From assembly GCF_013315695.1 (NCBI RefSeq), contig NZ_CP054353.1: a DNA stretch of 64,000 nucleotides; one strand, written 5' to 3'. Below are positions 41,055-42,701 of the stretch, one piece after another (position 1 is the stretch's first letter; every line of letters starts with the position of its first letter). A program made the position numbers and the translations under genes. Under the pieces are notes generated by a model. It made no database searches. It was not told the origin of the DNA and worked only from the letters and a program-made list of their open reading frames with translations. Source of the DNA: Escherichia coli (lineage in GTDB: Bacteria; Pseudomonadota; Gammaproteobacteria; Enterobacterales; Enterobacteriaceae).

Positions 41055-42701
41055 ATGAATGGCGCACAGTGGGTGGTACATGCGTTGCGGGCACAGGGTG
41101 TGAATACCGTTTTCGGTTATCCGGGTGGCGCAATTATGCCGGTTTACGATGCATTGTATGACGGCGGCATGGAGCACTTGCTGTGCCGACATGAACAGGG
41201 TGCGGCAATGGCGGCTATCGGTTATGCCCGTGCTACTGGCAAAACTGGCGTATGTATCGCCACGTCTGGTCCGGGCGCAACCAACCTGATAACCGGGCTT
41301 GCGGACGCACTGTTAGATTCCATCCCCGTTGTTGCTATCACCGGTCAGGTATCCGCACCGTTTATCGGCACTGACGCATTTCAGGAGGTGGATATTCTGG
41401 GGTTGTCGTTAGCCTGCACCAAGCACAGTTTCCTGGTGCAATCACTGGAAGAGTTACCGCGTATCATGGCCGAAGCGTTTGACGTCGCCAGCTCTGGTCG
41501 TCCTGGTCCGGTTTTGGTCGATATTCCAAAAGATATCCAGTTAGCCAGCGGCGATCTGGAACCGTGGTTCACCACCGTTGAAAACGAAGTGACTTTCCCA
41601 CATGCCGAAGTCGAGCAAGCGCGTCAGATGCTGGCAAAAGCGCAAAAACCGATGCTGTACGTTGGAGGTGGCGTGGGCATGGCGCAGGCAGTTTCGGCTT
41701 TGCGTGAATTTCTCGCTACCACAAAAATGCCTGCCACCTGCACGCTGAAAGGGCTGGGCGCAGTTGAAGCAGATTATCCGTACTATCTGGGCATGCTGGG
41801 AATGCACGGCACCAAAGCGGCGAACTTCGCGGTTCAGGAGTGCGATCTACTGATCGCCGTGGGCGCACGTTTTGATGACCGGGTGACCGGCAAACTGAAC
41901 ACCTTCGCACCACACGCCAGCGTTATCCATATGGATATCGATCCGGCAGAAATGAACAAGCTGCGTCAGGCACATGCGGCATTACAGGGTGATTTAAATG
42001 CTCTGTTACCAGCATTACAGCAGCCGTTAAATATCGATGACTGGCAGCAACACTGCGCACAACTGCGTGATGAACATGCCTGGCGTTACGACCATCCTGG
42101 TGACGCTATCTACGCGCCGTTGTTATTAAAACAACTGTCGGATCGTAAACCTGCGGATTGCATCGTGACCACAGATGTGGGGCAGCACCAGATGTGGGCT
42201 GCCCAGCACATCGTCCACACTCGCCCGGAAAATTTCATCACCTCCAGCGGCTTAGGCACCATGGGTTTTGGTTTACCGGCGGCGGTTGGCGCACAAGTCG
42301 CGCGACCGAACGATACCGTCGTCTGTATCTCCGGTGACGGCTCTTTCATGATGAATGTGCAAGAGCTGGGCACCGTAAAACGCAAGCAGTTACCGTTGAA
42401 AATCGTCTTACTCGATAACCAACGGTTAGGGATGGTTCGACAATGGCAGCAACTGTTTTTCCAGGAACGATATAGCGAAACCACCCTTACCGATAATCCC
42501 GATTTCCTCATGTTAGCCAGCGCCTTCGGCATCCCTGGCCAACACATCACCCGTAAAGACCAGGTTGAAGCGGCACTCGACACCATGCTGAACAGTGATG
42601 GGCCATACCTGCTTCATGTCTCAATCGACGAACTTGAGAACGTCTGGCCGCTGGTGCCGCCAGGTGCCAGTAATTCAGAAATGTTGGAGAAATTATCATG
42701 A
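41055..42701 (+). CDS. ilvG: Acetolactate synthase II large subunit IlvG, intact 548 aa
   Basis: ORF track shows one uninterrupted frame; thiamine-diphosphate enzyme architecture. Confidence 0.95.

What the first reader, a model, noticed from the sequence alone, without database searches (positions are those of the whole stretch)
41055..42701. ilvG is an uninterrupted 548-codon ORF, unlike the frameshifted K-12 allele
Wild-type K-12 carries a frameshift in ilvG that abolishes acetolactate synthase II and causes valine sensitivity. Here ilvG reads through to a stop that overlaps the ilvM start (ATGA), predicting functional AHAS II. Together with the IS1 and IS4 events, this indicates a non-K-12 strain or an ilvG+ derivative.
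Basis: partly seen in the sequence, partly recalled or inferred. Interest (0 to 1): 0.35.

Follow-up and report, generated by a model that had tools for sequence, protein, structure and literature searches.

The report
Ordinary intact ilvG, non-K-12 E. coli
The window carries the normal, unbroken version of the E. coli ilvG gene (valine-insensitive acetolactate synthase II); the broken copy is a peculiarity of the K-12 laboratory lineage, so this is expected for a natural isolate.

Summary
Window 41055..42701 (+) is one 548-codon ORF. Its TGA stop overlaps the ilvM ATG (ATGA at 42698-42701).

Aligned to the MG1655 ilvG pseudogene, it differs by 70 substitutions and a single 2-bp indel. K-12 lacks the "AT" found here at 42031-42032 and so stops at codon 328.

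The 4.3% divergence rules out a K-12 ilvG+ revertant. The gene is nucleotide-identical to ilvG of two human isolates (AF3, MSB1_4I) and 99.6% identical to SMS-3-5.

Among 5,426 complete E. coli genomes:
- The K-12 deletion junction occurs in about 340. Most sampled rows carry K-12 laboratory strain names.
- At least 4,750 carry the undeleted site.

A working enzyme is predicted from several features:
- It has all three ThDP-enzyme domains and scores above the AHAS II equivalog cut-off.
- The catalytic residues and the ThDP motif are present.
- dN/dS against natural alleles is 0.04-0.12.
- IlvM, the leader and the attenuator are intact.

Activity and valine resistance remain inferred. This is textbook knowledge, so the finding is already known and of low interest.

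In passing, the IS4 at 20238..21663 is a recombinant hybrid. It marks a ~72-kb inversion of the oriC-dnaA segment, or an assembly error across that repeat. No complete E. coli genome in the collection shares the arrangement.

The parts
40746..41035 (+). ilvLXGMEDA 5' leader region (the Rfam match covers the leader, the attenuator and the start of ilvX)
   Evidence: Rfam RF02744 scores 157 bits against a gathering score of 88. From the leader ORF onward the region is 100% identical to K-12.
40817..40915 (+). ilvL leader peptide, 32 aa, rich in Ile/Leu/Val codons (MTALLRVISLVVISVVVIIIPPCGAALGRGKA)
   Evidence: The ORF is listed. Pfam PF08046 IlvGEDA_leader scores 61.5 bits. NCBIfam NF007744 scores 81.9 bits against a cut-off of 59.
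40937..40971 (+). Attenuator terminator: a G+C-rich hairpin (GACCCCCGCACCGAAAGGUCCGGGGG) followed by eight U
   Evidence: The RNA fold of 40780-40975 shows the hairpin. Minimum free energy is -70.2 kcal/mol, with z = -4.27 against shuffles. The sequence was read and is identical to K-12. The simple terminator scan did not call it on the + strand.
41003..41053 (+). ilvX small ORF (16 aa, [16 protein letters not shown])
   Evidence: The sequence was read. The same ORF is annotated as ilvX in MG1655 and AF3.
41055..42701 (+). ilvG, intact: acetolactate (acetohydroxyacid) synthase II catalytic subunit, 548 aa
   Evidence: The ORF is listed. Pfam finds TPP_enzyme_N, TPP_enzyme_M and TPP_enzyme_C. 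NCBIfam equivalog NF006524 scores 1071.5 bits against a cut-off of 738. The gene is 100% identical to ilvG of AF3 and MSB1_4I.
42031..42032 (+). The AT dinucleotide that K-12 lacks (site of the K-12 frameshift, ilvG codon 326)
   Evidence: Shown by the pairwise alignment and by the allele comparison.
42698..42701 (+). ATGA overlap of the ilvG stop and the ilvM start (translational coupling arrangement)
42698..42961 (+). ilvM, AHAS II small subunit, 87 aa, with an ACT domain
   Evidence: Pfam ACT_5 scores 93 bits. NCBIfam NF008362 scores 133.9 bits against a cut-off of 68. The protein is identical to K-12 IlvM.
42981..43910 (+). ilvE, branched-chain amino-acid aminotransferase (the next gene of the operon)
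   Evidence: The frame is listed. The ATG at 42981 was read and matches the annotated start in K-12 and AF3.
43975..45825 (+). ilvD, dihydroxy-acid dehydratase
   Evidence: The ORF is 616 aa. It is annotated as ilvD in K-12 and AF3 at the equivalent position.

Best explanation
This is the ordinary wild-type ilvG allele of a natural, non-K-12 E. coli strain. Its closest relatives are the human isolates AF3 and MSB1_4I, and then SMS-3-5, IAI39 and CE10. Together with the overlapping ilvM it encodes acetohydroxyacid synthase II. This ThDP/FAD/Mg-dependent enzyme condenses pyruvate with pyruvate or 2-ketobutyrate as the first common step of Val/Leu/Ile synthesis, and it is not feedback-inhibited by valine. 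Expression comes from the ilvLXGMEDA promoter and is controlled by ribosome-mediated attenuation at the ilvL leader. Because the frame is open, there is no premature stop to exert polarity on ilvMEDA, and the strain should grow on minimal medium with valine. Shown here: the open frame, the position of the K-12 lesion, non-K-12 ancestry, family membership, and conservation of key residues. Inferred: enzyme activity, valine insensitivity and the growth phenotype.
For: The frame is open and the ATGA overlap is present. K-12 differs by one 2-bp deletion plus 70 substitutions. The gene is identical to annotated ilvG in two complete genomes and 99.6% identical to SMS-3-5. Flanks are 100% identical to MSB1_4I and AF3 and 99.5% to IAI39 and CE10. 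The NF006524 equivalog scores 1071 bits against a cut-off of 738, and all three ThDP-enzyme domains are present. E47, F109, Q110, M250, R276, V375, W464 and the GDG...N ThDP motif at residue 427 are present. Every residue that differs from K-12 is shared with at least one other natural allele. dN/dS is 0.04-0.12 against five natural alleles. IlvM is identical to K-12 IlvM. The leader, attenuator and ilvX are identical to K-12. The undeleted site is found in at least 4,750 of 5,426 genomes, against about 340 with the K-12 junction. Published work reports ilvG as intact in strains B, W and Crooks and links that to valine tolerance (PMC3446290, PMC3032704).
Against: Nothing in the sequence argues against it. 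No enzyme assay or growth test was possible. The functional roles of the listed residues come from my recollection of the AHAS II mutagenesis literature; only their presence was checked here. Promoter-proximal SNPs relative to K-12 (40719-40765) have unknown effect, but Nissle 1917 and SMS-3-5 share them.
Confidence: 0.95

Rival explanations
1. The window comes from a K-12 derivative in which ilvG was repaired, either as a spontaneous valine-resistant revertant or as an engineered ilvG+ strain.
For: The frame is open where K-12 is frameshifted. Such revertants do arise (PMC8605374 section 2.5).
Against: There are 70 substitutions (4.3%) against K-12 across the gene. The frame is kept by the same AT found in natural alleles, not by a 1-bp deletion at the TGA or another compensating indel. 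The flanking 14 kb is 100% identical to non-K-12 isolates. IS4 and IS1 positions are shared with MSB1_4I.
Confidence: 0.01
2. The ORF is open but the enzyme is inactive or not expressed, because of a deleterious missense change or a promoter defect.
For: There are 11 amino-acid differences from the repaired K-12 sequence. There are also several SNPs near the promoter.
Against: All 11 variant residues recur in other natural alleles, and none lies at a checked catalytic position. dN/dS is about 0.05. The promoter-region SNPs are shared with Nissle 1917 and SMS-3-5, and the leader and attenuator are unchanged. The identical allele occurs in two independent clinical or carriage isolates.
Confidence: 0.03
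3. The open frame is a sequencing or assembly artefact that hides a real indel.
For: The same window shows an IS4 junction that could be an assembly error.
Against: The 1647 nt are identical base for base to two independently assembled complete genomes. All six other natural alleles fetched are also exactly 1647 nt. ilvG lies 19 kb from the IS4 junction and is not repetitive.
Confidence: 0.01

Closest known systems
E. coli K-12 MG1655 ilvG pseudogene (b4488)
   Same: It is the same locus with the same start and the same operon context, ilvL-ilvX-ilvG-ilvM-ilvE-ilvD. Nucleotide identity is 95.7%. The leader, attenuator and IlvM protein are identical.
   Different: K-12 lacks 2 bp (AT) at ORF nt 977-978 and terminates at codon 328. 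The window allele is uninterrupted. There are 11 amino-acid differences when the K-12 frame is repaired in silico.
Intact ilvG of natural and other laboratory E. coli (AF3, MSB1_4I, SMS-3-5, Nissle 1917, C10, 00_3305, N96; reported intact in B, W and Crooks)
   Same: All are 1647 nt and intact, with the ATGA overlap to ilvM. AF3 and MSB1_4I are nucleotide-identical to the window. SMS-3-5 differs at 7 nt and 2 aa, and Nissle at 36 nt and 5 aa. Published reports: PMC3446290, PMC3032704.
   Different: There is only neutral-looking allelic variation (dN/dS 0.04-0.12).
E. coli AHAS I large subunit IlvB (PDB 6LPI)
   Same: It is the closest solved structure. The alignment is full-length, with E = 2.3e-161 and 541 bits, and shows the same three-domain ThDP enzyme.
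   Different: It is a paralogous isozyme. By established knowledge it is valine-sensitive, partners with IlvN, and sits in a different operon. The window protein scores above the cut-off only for the AHAS II equivalog NF006524 and the general biosynthetic model TIGR00118; none of the other models listed reaches its own cut-off.

Membership tests
Acetolactate synthase 2 catalytic subunit, IlvG (NCBIfam NF006524 equivalog) | Full-length match to the equivalog HMM above the curated cut-off | tested here: met
   The score is 1071.5 bits against a cut-off of 738, covering residues 1-547 of the protein and positions 1-547 of the 548-position profile.
Acetolactate synthase 2 catalytic subunit, IlvG (NCBIfam NF006524 equivalog) | Three-domain ThDP-enzyme architecture (N-terminal Pyr domain, central FAD-binding domain, C-terminal PP domain) | tested here: met
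   PF02776 covers residues 1-116, PF00205 covers 186-321 and PF02775 covers 374-522. All three score well above their gathering scores.
Acetolactate synthase 2 catalytic subunit, IlvG (NCBIfam NF006524 equivalog) | Catalytic glutamate, the ThDP-Mg binding motif (GDG...N), and active-site residues known from AHAS II mutagenesis | tested here: met
   E47, F109, Q110, M250, R276, V375 and W464 are present, and [30 protein letters not shown] starts at residue 427. The functional roles of these positions are from my recollection of the literature and were not tested here.
Acetolactate synthase 2 catalytic subunit, IlvG (NCBIfam NF006524 equivalog) | Genomic context: first large gene of ilvLXGMEDA, followed by the overlapping small-subunit gene ilvM | tested here: met
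   ilvL, ilvX, ilvG, ilvM, ilvE and ilvD are in the canonical order. The ATGA overlap is at 42698-42701.
Acetolactate synthase 2 catalytic subunit, IlvG (NCBIfam NF006524 equivalog) | Uninterrupted reading frame (functional allele as opposed to the K-12 pseudogene) | tested here: met
   There is no stop in 548 codons, and the AT that K-12 lacks is present.
Acetolactate synthase 2 catalytic subunit, IlvG (NCBIfam NF006524 equivalog) | Valine-insensitive acetohydroxyacid synthase activity, and valine-resistant growth | not testable with these tools
   This needs an enzyme assay or a growth test. It is inferred from sequence and from reports on strains with intact ilvG (PMC3446290, PMC3032704).

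The most novel reading that the evidence does not exclude
The most novel reading not excluded is that this allele differs kinetically or in herbicide or valine response from other AHAS II alleles. The allele (M39, I114, S214, T222, A308, D328, I370, V387) is seen identically in only two of 5,426 complete genomes. A related possibility is that the nearby IS4-mediated inversion, which I infer moves oriC about 60 kb further from ilv, changes ilv gene dosage measurably.
Probability: 0.02. Interest if true: 0.2.

Novelty: already known. Interest (0 to 1): 0.06.

Why it matters
It matters little beyond typing the window. An intact ilvG is the ancestral and overwhelmingly common state in E. coli, and the K-12 frameshift is the exception. 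The practical value is as a marker. It shows the window is not from a K-12 laboratory strain. It also predicts valine-resistant growth and no frameshift polarity on ilvEDA expression, both relevant if the strain is used for physiology or metabolic engineering.

Tried and rejected
1. K-12 ilvG+ revertant. This is rejected by 70 substitutions and by flanks identical to non-K-12 isolates.

2. Hidden inactivating missense. I compared six other natural alleles, and none of the window's variant residues is unique.

3. I first took the 443-aa ORF at 56699..58030 for the IS4 transposase. It lies in a stretch that is collinear in 5,423 genomes and annotated rhlB-rho-wec, so it is rho with an upstream in-frame extension. 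The real IS4 is at 20238..21663.

4. The simple terminator scan did not call the ilv attenuator on the + strand. RNA folding does show it.

5. I tried to read Lawther et al. 1981 (PMC319916) and Parekh & Hatfield 1997 (PMC178939). Neither is held, so they are cited only through the reference list of PMC8605374.

6. PMC3032704 describes the K-12 lesion as 'two separate base pair insertions'. The alignment here shows a 2-bp deletion in K-12 relative to every natural allele examined.

7. I deliberately did not run the large protein database searches, structure prediction or cluster look-up. The answer did not depend on them.

Full report
**Observation.** The ORF list gives a single ATG-initiated frame of 548 codons at 41055..42701 on the + strand, with no internal stop. 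The start coincides with the annotated ilvG start in MG1655 and in the clinical isolate AF3.

**Identity of the gene.**
- The protein has the three thiamine-diphosphate enzyme domains: TPP_enzyme_N at residues 1-116, TPP_enzyme_M at 186-321 and TPP_enzyme_C at 374-522.
- It matches the NCBIfam equivalog for 'acetolactate synthase 2 catalytic subunit' end to end, at 1071.5 bits against a cut-off of 738. Apart from the general biosynthetic large-subunit model TIGR00118, which it also passes, none of the other models listed reaches its own cut-off.
- Upstream lie the 32-aa ilvL leader peptide (40817..40915; Pfam and NCBIfam equivalog hits), a G+C-rich hairpin followed by eight U at about 40937-40971, and the 16-aa ilvX ORF (41003..41053).
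- Downstream lie ilvM (87 aa, ACT domain, equivalog NF008362), ilvE and ilvD.
- Rfam places a known enterobacterial 5'-UTR family over 40746..41035.
- The closest solved structure is the paralogous E. coli AHAS I large subunit, 6LPI, at E = 2e-161.

**The requested alignment with K-12.** The MG1655 ilvG pseudogene is 1645 bp. Global alignment to the window's 1647 bp gives 70 mismatches and one 2-bp gap. K-12 lacks the AT present here at ORF nt 977-978 (window 42031-42032). The sequence ...CCG TTA AAT ATC GAT GAC TGG... becomes ...CCG TTA AAT CAA TGA in K-12, which ends translation at codon 328. This is the frameshift and premature UGA described for MG1655 (PMC8605374, section 2.5, citing Lawther et al. 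1981).

**Which strain.**
- At 4.3% nucleotide divergence from K-12 this is not a repaired K-12 gene.
- ilvG is 100% identical to that of isolate AF3 (blood culture, UK) and MSB1_4I (rectal swab, Australia), and 99.6% identical to SMS-3-5.
- The 14 kb from rep to the wec genes is 100% identical to those same isolates and 99.5% identical to IAI39 and CE10.
- From my own knowledge, SMS-3-5, IAI39 and CE10 are phylogroup F strains. The window therefore probably comes from that part of the species.

**How unusual is an intact ilvG?** I used short queries in which any 28-nt megablast seed must span the deletion site.
- The K-12 junction is found in 343 of 5,426 complete genomes, 340 of them at 99% identity or better.
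- Most of the 60 sampled rows carry K-12 laboratory strain names such as MG1655, W3110, DH10B, BW25113, JM109 and MC4100. The others have K-12-like genome sizes, and I did not verify them individually.
- The undeleted site occurs in 1,236 genomes as the window's AAATATCGAT variant and in 3,514 as AAATATCAAT.
- The three sets are disjoint by design and sum to 5,093. The remaining ~330 genomes have other SNPs near the site and were not classed.
- Six other natural alleles that I fetched (AF3, Nissle 1917, C10, 00_3305, SMS-3-5, N96) are all exactly 1647 nt and open.
- Published comparisons say the same for strains B, W and Crooks and link intact ilvG to valine tolerance (PMC3446290; PMC3032704).
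- The intact gene is therefore the species norm, and the K-12 allele is the oddity.

**Is it likely to work?**
- The residues I recall from AHAS II mutagenesis studies are all present: Glu47, Phe109, Gln110, Met250, Arg276, Val375 and Trp464. So is the GDG...N ThDP-Mg motif at residue 427. Their presence is shown; their roles come from memory.
- The 11 residues that differ from the in-silico-repaired K-12 protein are each shared with at least one other natural allele.
- dN/dS against five natural alleles is 0.04-0.12, the signature of a gene under purifying selection.
- IlvM is identical to the K-12 protein.
- The leader ORF, attenuator and ilvX are base-for-base identical to K-12. The only upstream differences are SNPs at about 40719-40765, which Nissle 1917 and SMS-3-5 share.

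**Mechanism.**
- By established knowledge of the pathway, IlvG and IlvM form AHAS II, the valine-insensitive isozyme.
- AHAS II makes acetolactate and acetohydroxybutyrate.
- Transcription of ilvLXGMEDA is tuned by attenuation at the Ile/Leu/Val-rich leader.
- With the frame open there is no premature stop to exert polarity on ilvMEDA (Parekh & Hatfield 1997, cited in PMC8605374), and valine cannot starve the cell of isoleucine.
- Activity and the growth phenotype are inferred, not shown.

**Rivals.**
- A K-12 revertant is excluded by the 70 substitutions and by the flanks.
- An open but dead gene is unlikely, given the shared residues and the low dN/dS.
- An assembly artefact is unlikely, because two independent complete genomes carry the identical 1647 nt.

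**Verdict.** The finding is a well-known strain difference, so I rate novelty as already known and interest as low.

**Noticed in passing: an IS4-mediated inversion.**
- The window begins exactly at the dnaA start codon and runs dnaA-dnaN-recF-gyrB...ibpAB-yidE, then IS4 (20238..21663), then kup-rbs-rrnC-ilv.
- In K-12, and in the near-identical MSB1_4I and AF3, yidE and kup lie on opposite sides of the dnaA-oriC region.
- MSB1_4I has two inverted IS4 copies. One sits in a GntR-family gene next to yidE, with target duplication CACCTGGCTGGTG. The other sits between kup and ravA, with duplication CTCAAAGGGGGG.
- The window's single IS4 has the first copy's left flank and the second copy's right flank.
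- This is the signature of homologous recombination between the copies, which would invert the ~72-kb segment carrying oriC and dnaA. The alternative is an assembly error across the 1.4-kb repeat.
- None of the 5,426 complete genomes spans this junction.
- ilvG lies outside the inverted segment.

Noticed in passing
window 20238..21663 (IS4), junction at 21663/21664; context 1..24000: The IS4 is a hybrid. Its left flank, with the 13-bp target duplication CACCTGGCTGGTG, matches the IS4 copy in a GntR-family gene beside yidE in MSB1_4I. Its right flank, CTCAAAGGGGGG, matches a second, inverted IS4 copy between kup and ravA. This implies recombination between the two copies and an inversion of the ~72-kb dnaA-oriC segment, or a misassembly across the repeat. 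No complete E. coli genome of 5,426 spans the junction.
   Followed up: yes
window 11848..12351: A 167-aa ORF has the size of IS1 InsB, in the dgo/yidX region. MSB1_4I and AF3 match the window 10000..21664 in one uninterrupted 100%-identity piece, whereas the other listed genomes match in several pieces. The ORF was not searched and the insertion site was not examined.
   Followed up: no
window 40719..40765: SNPs relative to K-12 cluster in the promoter-proximal part of the ilv control region (for example TTGTGCTATTCGCAAAATC against K-12 TTGTACTATTTACAAAACC). The leader ORF, attenuator and ilvX downstream are 100% identical to K-12. The window variants are shared with Nissle 1917 and SMS-3-5, and strain C10 resembles K-12. 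The effect on promoter strength is unknown.
   Followed up: partly
window 1..1404: The window starts exactly at the dnaA GTG start codon. It is therefore probably the first 64 kb of a genome record rotated to begin at dnaA. An Rfam AsdA antisense-RNA hit lies within dnaA at 511..591 on the minus strand.
   Followed up: no
window 32300..37524: A complete rRNA operon is present: 16S, one tRNA, 23S, 5S and two distal tRNAs, plus an Rfam StyR-44 hit in the spacer just upstream of the 23S gene at 34081..34189. By its position between yieP and hdfR it corresponds to rrnC.
   Followed up: no
ilvG codon 326-328 in the literature versus the alignment: [quoted passage not shown]
   Followed up: yes
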